DNA of 64,000 nucleotides from Candidatus Falkowbacteria bacterium (GTDB lineage: Bacteria; Patescibacteriota; Patescibacteriia; UBA11705; JABHMO01), in NCBI GenBank assembly GCA_018674305.1, contig JABHAL010000004.1:256446-320445 (forward strand), read 5' to 3'. Each line of letters opens with the position of its first letter. The stretch's first letter is position 1. The translations under genes and the position numbers were made by a program. Shown in pieces: positions 20,057 to 31,816 of this stretch. The notes below the pieces were generated by a model, which had not been told where the DNA came from, made no database searches, and saw only the letters and a program-made list of their open reading frames with translations.

Positions 20057-20153
20057 TGTTCCCGGGATGGATTCGTTAAGTTCAGTATAGAAAATAGGCA
20101 TTCTTGTGGGGAGGTGCCTATTTTTGTTTTATTATTTAAAAGTATTAGTATGC

Positions 20154-20182
20154 TTGACAATAGGATTAATTTTAGTTAATGT
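20154..20182 (+). promoter_or_regulatory. Promoter TTGACA-N17-TAATGT upstream of the Cys/His repeat protein gene
   Basis: Read directly; followed by SD aaaaggagga and a TTG start. Confidence 0.45.
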
Positions 20183-20218
20183 ATTTTGATGTTCATTTAA
20201 CTGAAAAGGAGGATATCT

Positions 20219-20725
20219 TTGGGAAATAAAAAATGTAATGAACCGGATTGTCAAAAGCAATCGCAAAATGGTTTTTTCGGTTATTGCGTGGCGCATGGTC
20301 GTGAACAGGGAATTACAAAAAAATCTAATCCTGAATGTAAAGAAATAGGTTGTAAAAAAGTAGCAGTTTTTGGATTTGAAAACTATTGCATCGCGCATGG
20401 TCGTGAATATGGGATTACAAAAAAATCTAATCCTGAATGCAAGGAAAAGGGCTGTCAGAAAAGAAAGAAAGGTGGTTTTAGTGGATATTGTATTGCTCAC
20501 GGACGAGAGTATGGAGTTACGAAAATAAGCAGCATCTTATGTAAAGAAGAGGGTTGTCAGAAAAGAAGGAAAAGTGGTTTTAATGGATATTGTGTTGCTC
20601 ACGGACGAGCGTATGGAATTACGAAAAGATCTACTGGTCCATGTAAAGAAAAGGGTTGTCAAAAAAGAAGGCAAAGTGGTTTTAATGGATATTGTATTGC
20701 GCATGGTCGTGAACATGATGTTTAA
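20219..20725 (+). CDS. Tandem-repeat Cys/His-rich protein. Five ~37-aa repeats of C-x4-C-x(~10)-GFxGYC-x-AHGRExG[IV]TK, a putative zinc-binding repeat of unknown function
   Basis: Five near-identical repeats at protein level and ~111-bp repeats at DNA level; TTG start after a good SD; terminator at 20731-20760. Confidence 0.55.
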   Translation: MGNKKCNEPDCQKQSQNGFFGYCVAHGREQGITKKSNPECKEIGCKKVAVFGFENYCIAHGREYGITKKSNPECKEKGCQKRKKGGFSGYCIAHGREYGVTKISSILCKEEGCQKRRKSGFNGYCVAHGRAYGITKRSTGPCKEKGCQKRRQSGFNGYCIAHGREHDV

Positions 20726-20730
20726 AAAAA

Positions 20731-20760
20731 TAAATCGGCAAAGCATTGCCGATTTTTTAT
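20731..20760 (+). terminator. Intrinsic terminator (aatcggcaa-agca-ttgccgatt + T-run)
   Basis: Perfect stem read directly. Confidence 0.7.
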
Positions 20761-20827
20761 TTGGATAAAATTTTGACATTAGTATGAAAGTGTAATAAAA
20801 TATCTTTAGTTAACGAAGGAGGCTCTC

Positions 20828-21136
20828 GTGAAAACTCAGGATATACTTTGGCGATTGAAAAACCTAGACGAATGGTTTAACGGAGACCAGTGGTGGAGGG
20901 AGCTTTTTAACACACACAAGAAGATAATTAAACAGGCTTGTTTAGATCTAGTAGATCGTTTAGAATTACTAGGATCTTTTTCAGATGCAATTTCTTCTAA
21001 ACAGTTTGCGGTTTTGTTTAATGGAGTTTTTCAGCCTGAACTGAGCATCCATCCTCATATGCAAGAGGAATTGATTGCTCTTTTGTTCAAGGATGATCAC
21101 AATTATCAAAAAGAGGTATGTGATTATTTACAATGA
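20828..21136 (+). CDS. Hypothetical protein (GTG start)
   Basis: ORF with SD acgaaggaggctctcGTG. Confidence 0.35.
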   Translation: MKTQDILWRLKNLDEWFNGDQWWRELFNTHKKIIKQACLDLVDRLELLGSFSDAISSKQFAVLFNGVFQPELSIHPHMQEELIALLFKDDHNYQKEVCDYLQ

Positions 21137-21426
21137 GATAGCAACAGCTCTGATCTAATCAGGGCTTTTTTTATTAAGGATTACGGATTTGTACGGATGT
21201 ACGGATTAATAAAGATGATTATTGTAGCTCTGTATATTCGTACAAATCAGTAATCCGTCCTTGTTGATAATTAGCCACACAATATTTTCAGTAAACGCAC
21301 AAAATGTGCTATAATATAAATGCAAAATTTTATTAATAATTTTGGGTTTTAATTTTGTAATTTAAAAAAGAGGTATAAAGGTATTAATATATCTCCTTTA
21401 TCCCCTTTATCCCTTTTTAATTTTAT

Positions 21427-22437
21427 ATGGAAAAATTTTATCGTTCAATTTTGACTAATGCTTGGAAAATAAACTTGAGAAACAAGTGGTTGTGGTTACT
21501 TGGTTTGTTTGCCGCTATAATTGGGAATGGCAGTGTTTATGAAGCTTTGCTTCGTGGGTTTAATAATATTTCAGAAGGTCGCTCAGTGTTTTTTACATTT
21601 CGTGAGTATGTGGAATCTGGAGTATTTGGCATGTTTTCTTGGGCCAAGTTGTCAGCCTTGTGGCAGACAGATCCTTCAGCTTTTGGCATGAGTATGTTCT
21701 ATATGATAGTAATGATTTGCTTGATAGCAATTCTAATCACTATTGGAGTGATTGGACAAGGTGCATTGATCGCTGGAGTTATTGGTATTGATCAAAATAA
21801 AAAAGTAAAGCTGAAAAATGCGTTTCATGTTGGTGTTGAAAAATTCTGGCCGATTCTTGAATTAAATGTGATCACTAAAGTGTTTTTATTAGGGATTCTG
21901 ATATTCTTGGCTTATTTAGCTTCGTTAATTGTGTTTGCATCTTCAGCGTTTAATATTTTCATTTATGTTTTGTCATTTATAGTTTTTGTGATTTTGGGAA
22001 TAATCATTTATTTCCTAACTATTTATGGTACAGCTTATATTATTTTGCGAAATCAGGGACCATGGGGAGGCCTTAAAAATGCTTGGAAATTATTTACTAG
22101 GAATGTAATGTTGAATTTGGAAATGGGATTCTTGCTATTTATTTTGAATATTGTTGTTGGAATTTTGTTTTTCATTGCCAACTTCATAGTTATTTCTCCA
22201 ATTTTTGTCATTTATGTTTTATTCCTGTTTACTGGCGCAAAAATTATACCTGCAGTTTTAATGATAGTTATGATTTTAGTTTTTATTGCTGTTATGTTGG
22301 TTGTGGGATCTTGGTGGAGTTCTTTCCAATTAGGAACTTGGGCCTTGTTGTTTGAAAAATTGGACTCTTCTAATGCAAAGTCCAAGATTCAACGCTGGTT
22401 TGAAAACGTTAAAGGCCGAAAGAAAAAACGAAAATAA
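21427..22437 (+). CDS. Polytopic integral membrane protein, hypothetical
   Basis: Multiple long hydrophobic segments; basic C-terminus. Confidence 0.5.
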   Translation: MEKFYRSILTNAWKINLRNKWLWLLGLFAAIIGNGSVYEALLRGFNNISEGRSVFFTFREYVESGVFGMFSWAKLSALWQTDPSAFGMSMFYMIVMICLIAILITIGVIGQGALIAGVIGIDQNKKVKLKNAFHVGVEKFWPILELNVITKVFLLGILIFLAYLASLIVFASSAFNIFIYVLSFIVFVILGIIIYFLTIYGTAYIILRNQGPWGGLKNAWKLFTRNVMLNLEMGFLLFILNIVVGILFFIANFIVISPIFVIYVLFLFTGAKIIPAVLMIVMILVFIAVMLVVGSWWSSFQLGTWALLFEKLDSSNAKSKIQRWFENVKGRKKKRK

Positions 22438-31548: not shown

Positions 31549-31806
31549 ATGGCAAGAAAATTGAATCCAGCATTAATGAAACCATTAACACTTACTGCTG
31601 AATTAGAAGCTGTTGTTGGTAAAGGGCCAATGCCACGTTTCGAAGTTGTAAAAAAGATTTGGGTTTACATCAAGAAGAATGATCTTCAAAACCCAGAAAA
31701 CAAAAGAAACATTATTGCTGATGACAAGCTAAAACCACTTTTCGGTGGTAAAAAAGAAGTAAACATGTTTGAAATGACAAAACTTGTTTCAAAGCACATG
31801 AGCTAA
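31549..31806 (+). CDS. SWIB/MDM2-domain protein
   Basis: 85 aa matching the bacterial SWIB pattern (LSxELxAVVG...RxEVVKKIWxYIKxNxLQxPxNKRxI..DxKLKxxFG..xVxMFEMxKLxSKH). Confidence 0.65.
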   Translation: MARKLNPALMKPLTLTAELEAVVGKGPMPRFEVVKKIWVYIKKNDLQNPENKRNIIADDKLKPLFGGKKEVNMFEMTKLVSKHMS

Positions 31807-31816
31807 ATGATATTAT

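What the first reader, a model, noticed from the sequence alone, without database searches (positions are those of the whole stretch)
20154..20760. Five-fold tandem Cys/His repeat protein (C-x4-C ... GFxGYC-x-AHGRE) with its own promoter and terminator
A 168-aa protein is built almost entirely from five ~37-aa repeats, each carrying a C-x4-C pair and a downstream YC-x2-H triad. C-x4-C plus C-x2-H is the geometry of a C2CH zinc knuckle / treble-clef. The repeats are conserved at the DNA level as ~111-bp units, implying recent amplification or concerted evolution. The motif (CxxxGCxKxxxxGFxGYCxAHGRxxGxT) does not correspond to any bacterial zinc finger I can name. It loosely recalls uncharacterised C..GC..(x)GxC..HGG repeats of some eukaryotic/viral proteins. 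It could be a multivalent nucleic-acid-binding or metal-binding protein.
Basis: partly seen in the sequence, partly recalled or inferred. Interest (0 to 1): 0.7.

Follow-up and report, generated by a model that had tools for sequence, protein, structure and literature searches.

The report
Zinc-finger repeat protein in a CPR bacterium
A small, very basic protein of a Candidatus Falkowbacteria bacterium is built from five tandem Cys3-His zinc-finger modules of a family otherwise seen mainly in algae, oomycetes, giant viruses and phage nucleases. It sits in the genome as a movable single-gene cassette, and it probably binds DNA, although that is an inference.

Summary
The gene is real: 20219-20725 (+), TTG start, 168 aa. 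The same protein was assembled in many independent metagenomes.

It contains five in-phase C-x4-C-x11-C-x2-H units.

The repeat is not an orphan. It passes Pfam's threshold for PF24906 Zf_WRKY19 (55 bits against a cut-off of 27). Its closest orthologue also passes PF19114 EsV-1-7. Profile comparison links it to giant-virus EsV-1-7 repeats and to the N-terminal repeats of a phage HNH endonuclease.

An AlphaFold model of two repeats (pLDDT 81.5) most resembles A20-type treble-clef zinc fingers. This match is consistent across hits but statistically weak.

An exhaustive search of 1.84 billion proteins gave only 92 relatives. The few bacterial ones I could place are Falkowbacteria or Falkowbacteria-like.

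Three related genomes carry the gene at three different sites in otherwise collinear backbones. One copy lies beside a transposase-like ORF. Repeat number varies (2, 4, 5, 7).

Best reading: an accessory array that binds five zinc ions and acts as a multivalent DNA binder. The family assignment is solid. The function is inferred.

It is a new, unusual member of a known but biochemically uncharacterised family.

The parts
20090..20130 (+). Terminator hairpin and U-run of the upstream ftsH gene. It isolates the zinc-finger (ZF) gene from the rpoB-rpoC-ftsH transcription unit.
   Evidence: RNA fold -15.2 kcal/mol, z = -3.6. The loop is too long for the consensus scan, so it was not listed.
20154..20182 (+). 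Putative sigma-70-type promoter: -35 TTGACA (20154-20159), 17-nt spacer, -10 TAATGT (20177-20182).
   Evidence: Read from the sequence. It was not called by the scan because the -10 matches only 3 of 6 positions. The same layout, a terminator T-run running into TTGACA, precedes the orthologous genes in L005.
20206..20212 (+). Ribosome-binding site AAGGAGG, 6 nt before the TTG start.
   Evidence: Sequence.
20219..20725 (+). Coding sequence of the 168-aa protein with five zinc-finger modules (stop codon included).
   Evidence: ORF list. Pfam PF24906 at 55.1 bits against a cut-off of 27. The identical protein was called in many independent assemblies. pI 9.45 and net charge +19.
20231..20332 (+). 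Repeat 1 (residues 5-38): KCNEPDCQKQSQNGFFGYCVAHGREQGITKKSNP.
   Evidence: Its closest relatives are repeats of the L005 orthologues.
20333..20434 (+). Repeat 2 (residues 39-72).
20435..20536 (+). Repeat 3 (residues 73-106).
   Evidence: Repeats 3-5 are each other's closest relatives, at 67-75% aa and 79-81% nt identity.
20537..20638 (+). Repeat 4 (residues 107-140).
20639..20722 (+). Repeat 5 (residues 141-168), truncated after the HGRE motif.
20571..20593 (+). A 23-nt segment identical to 20673-20695 in repeat 5. It is the junction of the clean 102-bp deletion that gives a four-repeat, 134-aa allele in another sample.
   Evidence: L017 aligns to the window with zero mismatches apart from the loss of 20571-20672. 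Three other contigs end at 20590, 20596 and 20690.
20732..20762 (+). Intrinsic terminator: 10-bp stem, 4-nt loop, T-run.
   Evidence: Scan. Fold -12.7 kcal/mol, z = -3.2.
20057..21426 (.). A 1.37-kb segment holding the ZF gene and a 102-aa ORF (20828-21136, with its own promoter at 20773-20801 and terminator at 21146-21166). It is absent from the collinear backbone of another Falkowbacteria genome.
   Evidence: In L026, ftsH is followed after 120 bp by the homologue of window 21427-22437, while the rest of 16.8-32.5 kb is collinear.

Best explanation
The gene encodes a small cytoplasmic protein that is a string of five one-zinc Cys3-His modules.

Module structure. In each module, the C-x4-C knuckle and the C-x2-H at the start of a short helix hold one Zn2+. 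The modules belong to the Zf_WRKY19 / EsV-1-7 superfamily and probably adopt an A20-like treble-clef fold. They are joined at a fixed 34-residue pitch by a conserved basic linker (HGRExGITKKS).

Proposed function. With a net charge of about +19, the array most likely works as a multivalent nucleic-acid binder, probably of DNA. Each finger would contribute a few contacts, and the number of fingers would set affinity or footprint. This is the role the same module appears to play when it is fused in front of HNH or other nuclease domains in phages and giant viruses.

Genomic status. In Falkowbacteria it is an accessory, horizontally mobile, single-gene cassette with its own promoter and terminator. 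Repeat number changes by unequal recombination between units.

Shown: the gene, the repeat architecture, family membership, rarity, mobility, and variation in repeat number.
Inferred: zinc binding, the fold, DNA as the ligand, and any cellular role (nucleoid-associated protein, regulator, or remnant or partner of a selfish element).

The confidence given (0.45) is for the whole statement including DNA binding. The family assignment and zinc-finger nature alone I put at about 0.9.
For: Family:
- Pfam Zf_WRKY19 at 55.1 bits against a cut-off of 27, with five stretches.
- The seven-repeat orthologue in L005 scores 109 bits on Zf_WRKY19 and 38 bits on EsV_1_7_cys (cut-off 25).
- Of 93 homologues, 45 match EsV_1_7_cys and 27 match Zf_WRKY19.
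- hhalign of the 34-aa repeat profile gives 95% probability against phage HNH repeats and 94.7% against giant-virus EsV-1-7 repeats.

Zinc ligands:
- C, C, C and H are the only invariant or near-invariant positions across all homologues.
- His is replaced by Cys at ligand 4 in several repeats of P0002.

Fold:
- The AlphaFold model of two repeats has pLDDT 81.5.
- 13 of the top 16 Foldseek PDB hits are A20-type zinc fingers, with rmsd 0.8-0.9 A over 25-29 residues in the best of them.
- The profile against PDB sequences hits A20 ZnF7 at E = 0.012, with identical C-x4-C-x11-C-x2-C spacing.

DNA binding:
- pI 9.45 and net charge +19.
- P0081 carries four such repeats, an HNH domain and an HNH_3 domain, all above Pfam cut-offs, on a phage-like contig.
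- HNH domains occur in 3 of the 93 homologues.
- Giant-virus proteins join EsV-1-7 repeats to a C-terminal region with a nuclease-like motif.

Accessory and mobile status:
- The gene sits at three different insertion sites in collinear or related Falkowbacteria backbones. One copy is next to a Transposase_20-matching ORF.
- Paralogues are present in L005 and L025.
- Repeat counts of 2, 4, 5 and 7 are seen.

Purifying selection: dN/dS is below 1 between units wherever dS could be estimated.
Against: - All Foldseek and PDB-sequence matches have weak E-values, between 0.004 and 3.
- The nearest structural analogues, A20-type fingers, bind ubiquitin rather than DNA.
- Nuclease fusions are a small minority of homologues (3 of 93). 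The nuclease nature of the giant-virus C-terminal domain is only my reading of a motif, and Pfam is silent on it.
- No conserved gene neighbourhood points to a pathway.
- The full-length AlphaFold model was uninformative, with pLDDT 32.
Confidence: 0.45

Rival explanations
1. It is a protein-binding adaptor. Each finger is an A20-like module that recognises a protein surface, as A20 ZnF4, A20 ZnF7 and the Rabex-5 finger recognise ubiquitin. The array would scaffold or sequester a partner, possibly a ubiquitin-like or host-cell protein.
For: - The only structural analogues found are A20-type fingers, all solved in complex with or known to bind ubiquitin.
- Pfam also reports PF18091, from the zinc-finger-bearing C-terminal domain of the HOIP ubiquitin ligase, at 34.8 bits against a cut-off of 23.
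- The HOIP catalytic core also appears among the Foldseek hits.
Against: - Pfam's A20 model itself does not match, even at E <= 10.
- The positions just after the second Cys are Gln/Lys here. In A20 and Rabex-5 fingers they carry the aromatic pair that contacts ubiquitin (this point is from my own knowledge of those structures).
- The extreme positive charge (+19) fits a polyanion ligand better.
- No ubiquitin-like or E1/E2 genes were seen next to any of the four bacterial loci.
- The fold matches are statistically weak.
Confidence: 0.15
2. It is a domesticated or decaying DNA-targeting domain of a selfish nuclease element, of the homing-endonuclease type. It persists and moves as a free-standing cassette and has no cellular function of its own. 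Alternatively, it works together with the unannotated ORF that travels with it.
For: - It is a free-standing gene with its own promoter and terminator, inserted between conserved genes at different sites in related genomes. This is the typical layout of free-standing homing-endonuclease genes (established knowledge of phage homing endonucleases).
- The same module precedes an HNH domain in a phage protein.
- One copy lies beside an IS110-like ORF.
- Each insertion carries an extra orphan ORF: 102 aa in the window and 190 aa in L005.
Against: - No nuclease domain is detectable in the protein or in the co-inserted ORFs.
- The 102-aa and 190-aa ORFs are not detectably related.
- The identical sequence is kept in many samples, and dN/dS is below 1 between units. 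Its GC and GC3 match the host. These facts argue for a maintained function rather than decay.
Confidence: 0.15
3. It is a metal-buffering or storage protein, of the metallothionein or metallochaperone type. In this reading the Cys/His sites serve to hold or deliver Zn (or Cd or Cu) and do not build a binding surface.
For: 15 Cys and 6 His in 168 residues, arranged in regular sites.
Against: - Cys makes up only 9% of residues, and each site is a classical structural CCCH set with conserved Gly and aromatic core residues (GFxGYC).
- The linker and basic residues are conserved across genomes, which a metal sponge would not need.
- The relatives are fused to nucleases, not to metal-handling domains.
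- No metal-homeostasis genes lie nearby.
Confidence: 0.05
4. It is not a real gene or not a real repeat: either a collapsed or expanded assembly artefact, or a chance ORF in a DNA repeat.
For: - One short contig carries a four-repeat version.
- Three contigs break inside the array.
- ORFs also exist on the opposite strand.
Against: - The identical five-repeat gene was recovered on contigs of up to hundreds of kilobases by different assemblers and projects.
- Units share at most 23 identical nucleotides, too little to confuse modern assemblers.
- A ribosome-binding site, terminators, a Pfam match and cross-genome conservation of Cys/His in this frame only all support a real gene.
Confidence: 0.01

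Closest known systems
Pfam PF24906 Zf_WRKY19 (the 'C-x4-C ... C-x2-H-G-G-G-R-R-C' repeats of Arabidopsis WRKY19, oomycetes and diatoms)
   Same: The ligand pattern is the same: C-x4-C-x(9-11)-C-x2-H with G before Cys2, K after it, and G-aromatic before Cys3. The HMM score is twice the gathering cut-off. Both occur in tandem arrays.
   Different: Typical eukaryotic arrays are packed at 24-25 aa with an HGGGRRC junction (L006 and L008). Here the pitch is 34 aa with an HGRExGITKKS linker. That 34-aa subtype also exists in Phytophthora (P0007) and other eukaryote-like proteins. The host here is a CPR bacterium and the protein is nothing but the array.
EsV-1-7 cysteine-rich repeat family (Pfam PF19114). 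Members include Ectocarpus virus EsV-1-7 and the brown-alga developmental regulator IMMEDIATE UPRIGHT.
   Same: It has the same Cys3-His logic in tandem repeats of similar length. The L005 orthologue passes the Pfam threshold. hhalign gives 94.7% probability. Function is likewise unknown, and the literature describes the motif as a possible new class of zinc finger with a patchy, virus-linked distribution (bioRxiv 10.1101/2024.02.19.579948; PMC7457493).
   Different: The loop between Cys2 and Cys3 is about 4-5 residues longer in the EsV-1-7 repeats. The window protein itself scores only 12.9 bits against a cut-off of 25. The papers I read discuss the family only in eukaryotes and Nucleocytoviricota.
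A20-type zinc finger (TNFAIP3 ZnF4 and ZnF7, Rabex-5)
   Same: Identical spacing, C-x4-C-x11-C-x2-(C/H), and a shared G-aromatic-Cys3 motif. These are the best structural matches to the predicted module, at rmsd 0.8-0.9 A for the best hits.
   Different: The fourth ligand is His. There is no match to Pfam's A20 model. The similarity is statistically weak. A20 fingers bind ubiquitin and occur singly or spaced apart, not as a tight 34-aa array.
N-terminal Cys3-His repeats of actinophage-type HNH endonucleases (example P0081)
   Same: Homologous module: Zf_WRKY19 at 30.6 bits and hhalign at 95% probability. It is tandemly repeated and found in the prokaryotic world.
   Different: The pitch is about 45 aa with an HYRR(L/M) helix, and the repeats are fused to an HNH nuclease. 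The window protein has no catalytic domain.
Tandem C2H2 zinc-finger arrays (GLI, TFIIIA)
   Same: The design principle is shared: many one-zinc modules at a fixed pitch with a conserved linker. The repeat profile even hits GLI weakly, at E = 0.004.
   Different: The fold and ligand set differ (C2H2 beta-beta-alpha against Cys3-His knuckle plus helix N-terminus). No homology is claimed.

Membership tests
Pfam PF24906 Zf_WRKY19 | Whole-protein HMM score at or above the curated gathering cut-off (27 bits) | tested here: met
   55.1 bits, E = 6.6e-15, five stretches. The L005 orthologue scores 109.3 bits.
Pfam PF24906 Zf_WRKY19 | Cys-Cys-Cys-His ligand pattern C-x4-C-x(9-11)-C-x2-H in every unit | tested here: met
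   Five of five units have C-x4-C-x11-C-x2-H.
Pfam PF24906 Zf_WRKY19 | Tight 24-25-aa tandem packing with an HGGG(R/K)RC junction, as in typical eukaryotic members | tested here: not met
   The period is 34 aa and the junction is HGRExGITKKSNPxC. Compare L006 and L008. This describes the common eukaryotic arrangement rather than the domain model.
Pfam PF24906 Zf_WRKY19 | One zinc ion bound per unit | not testable with these tools
   Indirect support only: invariant ligands and His/Cys exchange at ligand 4.
EsV-1-7 repeat family (PF19114) | HMM score at or above the gathering cut-off (25 bits) | tested here: not met
   The window protein scores 12.9 bits, E = 0.1. Its seven-repeat orthologue does pass, at 38 bits, and hhalign against giant-virus repeats gives 94.7%. 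The window protein is therefore a superfamily relative, not a direct member.
EsV-1-7 repeat family (PF19114) | Longer Cys2-Cys3 loop (about 15-16 residues) and a repeat of about 38 aa | tested here: not met
   The loop is 11 residues and the repeat is 34 aa. The giant-virus repeats in L013 need a 4-residue insertion in the alignment.
A20-type zinc finger (PF01754) | Match to the family HMM | tested here: not met
   Not among the Pfam hits even at E <= 10.
A20-type zinc finger (PF01754) | Spacing C-x(2-4)-C-x11-C-x2-C with four Cys ligands | tested here: inconclusive
   The spacing is identical, but ligand 4 is His in the window protein. It is Cys in several repeats of the Falkowbacteria homologue P0002.
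A20-type zinc finger (PF01754) | A20 fold | tested here: inconclusive
HNH homing endonuclease with zinc-finger targeting repeats | Presence of an HNH (or other) nuclease domain | tested here: not met
   No nuclease domain was found in the protein or in the adjacent 102-aa ORF.
Metallothionein-like metal-storage proteins | Very high Cys content in clustered Cys-x-Cys / Cys-Cys motifs, and few aromatic residues | tested here: not met
   Cys is 9% of residues. The sites are regular CCCH sets, and 15 aromatic residues are conserved in the GFxGYC motif.

The most novel reading that the evidence does not exclude
The EsV-1-7 / WRKY19-type finger is a cross-domain mobile DNA-recognition module shared by giant viruses, their algal and oomycete hosts, phages and ultra-small CPR bacteria. 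The Falkowbacteria proteins would be its minimal, array-only form, acquired by horizontal transfer or ancestral to the eukaryotic and viral expansions. They would work as programmable multi-finger DNA binders, for example silencers of foreign DNA or regulators carried on mobile cassettes. Because the bacterial proteins are tiny and contain only the repeats, they would give the first tractable system for working out what this enigmatic family does. That family includes the brown-alga developmental regulator IMM.
Probability: 0.15. Interest if true: 0.7.

Novelty: new member of a known kind. Interest (0 to 1): 0.45.

Why it matters
The EsV-1-7 / Zf_WRKY19 repeats form very large gene families in brown algae and are common in oomycetes, diatoms and giant viruses. 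One member controls early development in Ectocarpus. No biochemical activity has been shown for any of them.

Finding the module as a 168-residue, repeat-only protein in a bacterium offers a minimal model for structure, zinc stoichiometry and ligand determination. It also extends a family described as eukaryotic and viral into the Candidate Phyla Radiation (CPR) and into phage nucleases.

For CPR biology, it is an example of a rare accessory gene that hops between sites in a very small genome and changes its repeat number. It sits in a genome that also carries a eukaryote-type SWIB domain gene.

The finding is not a new kind of system. Its value lies in the unexpected host range and in making the family experimentally approachable.

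Tried and rejected
1. Sequence search of the PDB with the whole protein gave no hit at E <= 10. NCBIfam gave only noise. PADLOC defence models gave nothing. PHROGs gave only weak hits to families of unknown function. tblastn against 50,697 phage records gave nothing.

2. The word-indexed protein search was almost blind to this family.
- It returned 1 hit for the window protein.
- It returned 0 hits for a profile built from pairs of repeats, although the same profile scores known relatives at 100-340 bits locally.
- It returned 2 hits for the L005 orthologue.
- Only the exhaustive HMMER scan was informative.

The accepted scans found one bacterial genome locus, only eukaryote-like loci in JGI metagenomes, and one giant-virus contig.

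5. I considered a functional link to the SWIB gene next to the Falkowbacteria homologue P0002. I rejected it. The window has the same SWIB gene directly followed by rnhB, so the adjacency results from an insertion.

6. I considered that the co-inserted ORFs (102 aa in the window, 190 aa in L005) are homologous partners. BLASTP gives E = 1.6 and neither has a family hit.

7. I looked for direct or inverted repeats that would mark the ends of the 1.37-kb insertion. None was convincing.

8. No Rfam family lies within the gene on either strand. I treat the minus-strand ORFs (20132-20500 and 20537-20779) as mirror images of the repeat. The ribosome-binding site and the conserved Cys/His pattern are features of the plus-strand frame.

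9. The original paper on the EsV-1-7 family (Macaisne et al. 2017) is not in the library. Statements about it are taken from papers that cite it.
Full report
**1. What is in the sequence**

The region holds one clean ORF on the plus strand, 20219-20725. It has a TTG start and encodes 168 aa. An AAGGAGG ribosome-binding site lies six bases upstream.

The protein contains five copies of C-x4-C-x11-C-x2-H, starting at residues 6, 40, 74, 108 and 142. The copies are therefore exactly 34 residues (102 bp) apart. All 15 cysteines of the protein lie in these motifs.

Tandem Repeats Finder reports one array, 20291-20717, with period 102, 4.2 copies, 76% matches and score 421. Everything else in the description holds.

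The gene is bracketed by hairpin-plus-U-run terminators.
- One follows ftsH: -15.2 kcal/mol, z = -3.6.
- One follows the gene itself at 20732-20755: -12.7 kcal/mol, z = -3.2.

A perfect -35 hexamer, TTGACA, sits at 20154-20159. The best -10 at 17-nt spacing is TAATGT, which the consensus scan did not accept. The promoter is therefore plausible but not demonstrated. The orthologous genes in another genome show the same layout, with a terminator T-run running into TTGACA.

No Rfam family lies in the gene on either strand. The minus-strand ORFs listed are mirror images of the repeat.

**2. It is not an artefact, and whose genome it is**

The identical 168-aa product is on record in 52 blocks of the gene index. 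In the 23 contigs that were read it has the same neighbours: rpoC, ftsH, the gene, a 102-aa ORF, a 336-aa membrane protein and a methyltransferase. These contigs come from NCBI (GCA_018703365.1), Logan, ENA and JGI assemblies.

The neighbouring RpoC, FtsH and 102-aa proteins are named Candidatus Falkowbacteria bacterium in NCBI. That places the organism in the Candidate Phyla Radiation. The window has 36% GC. The gene's GC (36.9%) and third-position GC (20.7%) match those of rpoC and infB.

**3. The repeats are old and under selection**

Units are 58-81% identical in DNA. Synonymous divergence between them runs from 0.36 to saturation. dN/dS is below 1 wherever dS could be estimated. This argues against 'recent amplification or concerted evolution' for the array as a whole.

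Repeats 3-5 are each other's closest relatives, at 67-75% aa identity. Repeats 1 and 2 are closest to repeats of the orthologues in another genome. The likely history is an ancestral short array extended by internal duplication.

**4. Repeat number varies**

A related genome (L005) carries two adjacent paralogues, each with its own terminator. One has two repeats (70 aa) and the other has seven (241 aa, 63% identical to the window protein).

In one marine sample the window locus itself occurs with a clean 102-bp deletion, giving four repeats and 134 aa. There are no other differences. The junction lies in the only long identity between repeats 4 and 5, which is 23 nt.

Three further contigs end at exactly that identity. 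This suggests, but does not prove, that both alleles coexist.

**5. What family it belongs to**

The protein passes Pfam's curated threshold for PF24906 Zf_WRKY19: 55.1 bits against 27, E = 6.6e-15. The seven-repeat orthologue scores 109 bits on that model and also passes PF19114 EsV_1_7_cys, at 38 bits against 25.

An exhaustive HMMER scan of 1.84 billion representative proteins found only 92 relatives at E <= 0.001. Of these relatives plus the query, 45 match EsV_1_7_cys and 27 match Zf_WRKY19.

Named or placeable relatives are:
- Phytophthora cinnamomi KAJ8579122.1, with the same 34-aa pitch.
- Eukaryote-like metagenome contigs with the classical 24-25-aa 'HGGGRRC' packing.
- A giant-virus contig that also carries a D5-type primase-helicase and an RNA polymerase subunit.
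- A phage-like contig whose protein P0081 joins four such repeats (Zf_WRKY19 at 30.6 bits) to HNH and HNH_3 domains.

Profile-profile comparison of the 34-aa repeat gives 95% probability against the phage repeats and 94.7% against the giant-virus repeats.

The statement that the motif matches nothing known was not.

The literature describes the EsV-1-7 motif as a possible new class of zinc finger. It is expanded to hundreds of genes in brown algae, present in phaeoviruses, and patchy elsewhere. One genetically characterised member exists (IMMEDIATE UPRIGHT), and no biochemical function is known (bioRxiv 10.1101/2024.02.19.579948; PMC7457493; PMC12993054; bioRxiv 10.64898/2026.04.27.720984). 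I found no paper that mentions Falkowbacteria together with zinc fingers.

**6. Fold**

AlphaFold on the whole protein with two sequences failed, with pLDDT 32. With a 58-row alignment of two-repeat segments from the homologues, residues 39-106 gave pLDDT 81.5. In that model the only helix in each unit begins right after the third Cys, so C-x2-H sits at the helix N-terminus. That is the treble-clef arrangement (my own knowledge of zinc-finger fold classes).

Independently, the sequence profile hits A20 ZnF7 (E = 0.012), A20 ZnF4 (0.1) and Rabex-5 (0.2). The spacing is the same, C-x4-C-x11-C-x2-C, and the G-aromatic-Cys motif is shared.

In the Falkowbacteria homologue P0002, several repeats have Cys instead of His at the fourth ligand position. 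That exchange is expected of a metal ligand.

I regard an 'A20-like treble-clef Cys3-His module, one zinc each' as likely. It is not proven, and Pfam's own A20 model does not match.

**7. Genomic behaviour**

A groundwater Falkowbacteria contig (L026, also GCA_003518055.1) is collinear with window 16.8-32.5 kb. The shared order is rpoC, ftsH, a membrane protein, a methyltransferase, infB, thioredoxin, thioredoxin reductase, glutamate dehydrogenase, SWIB and rnhB.

The zinc-finger gene sits at a different place in each genome.
- In L026, the zinc-finger gene (P0002: 359 aa, 41% identical, E = 7e-37) lies between SWIB and rnhB. With it are 1.8 kb of repeat-containing non-coding DNA and an ORF matching Transposase_20. 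Only 120 bp separate ftsH from the membrane-protein gene there.
- In the window the reverse holds. SWIB (31549-31809) abuts rnhB. The zinc-finger gene and a 102-aa orphan ORF fill 1.37 kb after ftsH.
- In L005 the two paralogues and a 190-aa orphan ORF sit between a sugar transferase and a glycosyltransferase. The homologues of those two genes are adjacent in the window at 54.1-56.8 kb.
- A fourth contig (L025) has three tandem paralogues beside a bacterial-type phosphoglucose isomerase.

The gene is therefore an accessory cassette that has been inserted or moved repeatedly. I found no terminal repeats marking the window insertion.

**8. How it most likely works**

Shown:
- A repeat-only protein of five Cys3-His modules.
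- A fixed pitch and a conserved basic linker.
- pI 9.45 and net charge +19.
- No signal peptide evident in the N-terminus (read from the sequence).

Inferred: each module binds one zinc, and the array binds a polyanion, most probably DNA. The main support is the charge and the use of the same module in front of an HNH nuclease in a phage. By my reading of an RPDF...ExDExQH motif that Pfam does not recognise, it also precedes a nuclease-like domain in giant viruses.

I give the family assignment and zinc-finger nature about 0.9. I give the DNA-binding mechanism about 0.45.

Rivals:
- A protein-binding adaptor on the A20 model (0.15).
- A targeting domain left over from, or partnering with, a selfish nuclease element (0.15). 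This overlaps with DNA binding.
- A metal buffer (0.05).
- An artefact (0.01).

**9. Novelty and verdict**

This is a new and unusual member of a known domain family, not a new kind of system.

The unexpected points are the host (a CPR bacterium, for a family discussed only in eukaryotes and giant viruses), its rarity (92 relatives in 1.84 billion proteins), its mobility in a tiny genome, and its minimal repeat-only form. That minimal form makes the family experimentally approachable.

Interest is 0.45.

Noticed in passing
window 31549-31809 (+): An 86-aa SWIB/MDM2-domain gene, a eukaryote-type chromatin-associated domain, lies between glutamate dehydrogenase and rnhB. It is 77% identical to the Falkowbacteria protein HCC23366.1, which scores 113 bits on Pfam SWIB.
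   Followed up: partly
window 20773-21166 (+): A 102-aa Trp-rich orphan ORF (20828-21136) has a near-consensus promoter (TTGACA-17-TAAAAT, 20773-20801) and its own terminator (21146-21166). It has no family hit. It is absent from the collinear L026 genome, so it was apparently inserted together with the zinc-finger gene.
   Followed up: partly
window 21178-21256: A long imperfect hairpin (28-nt arms, 86% complementary, 23-nt loop) lies in the 290-bp spacer before the membrane-protein gene. It gives only sub-threshold microRNA-like Rfam matches.
   Followed up: no
L017 155-559; contig ends of L018, L024 and L022 at window 20590, 20596 and 20690: A four-repeat (134-aa) allele arises from a clean 102-bp deletion between the 23-nt identities of repeats 4 and 5. 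Three other assemblies break at exactly these identities. This may reflect real copy-number polymorphism in the population.
   Followed up: partly
L014 7080-8865 (= L026 14334-16119): A 1.8-kb stretch without a called gene lies between the Falkowbacteria zinc-finger gene and an IS110-like ORF. It holds at least four copies of a repeat that reads LPETxLNLKWWG in a reverse frame. It could be a repetitive non-coding element or a decayed gene.
   Followed up: no
L025 1433-2905: Three zinc-finger-repeat ORFs lie in tandem (147 aa, 145 aa, and one cut by the contig end) next to a bacterial-type phosphoglucose isomerase. This is a local expansion of the family in another bacterium.
   Followed up: partly
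L013 4800-6257 (giant-virus contig) and protein P0092: Five or more EsV-1-7 repeats are followed by a C-terminal domain with an RPDF...(I/L)xExDExQH motif. By eye this resembles a PD-(D/E)xK nuclease core. Pfam finds nothing there.
   Followed up: partly
L005 (CAYPSS010000004.1): The record is titled 'uncultured Gammaproteobacteria bacterium'. Its genes are 60-66% identical in protein to genes of this Falkowbacteria window at 54.1-62.0 kb and partly syntenic with them. The taxonomic label looks wrong.
   Followed up: partly
window 20219-20722 (protein): Pfam PF18091 (C-terminal domain of the HOIP ubiquitin ligase) scores above its cut-off, at 34.8 bits against 23, across the five repeats. This is probably because that model contains a similar small zinc finger. 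The HOIP catalytic core also appears among the weak Foldseek hits.
   Followed up: partly
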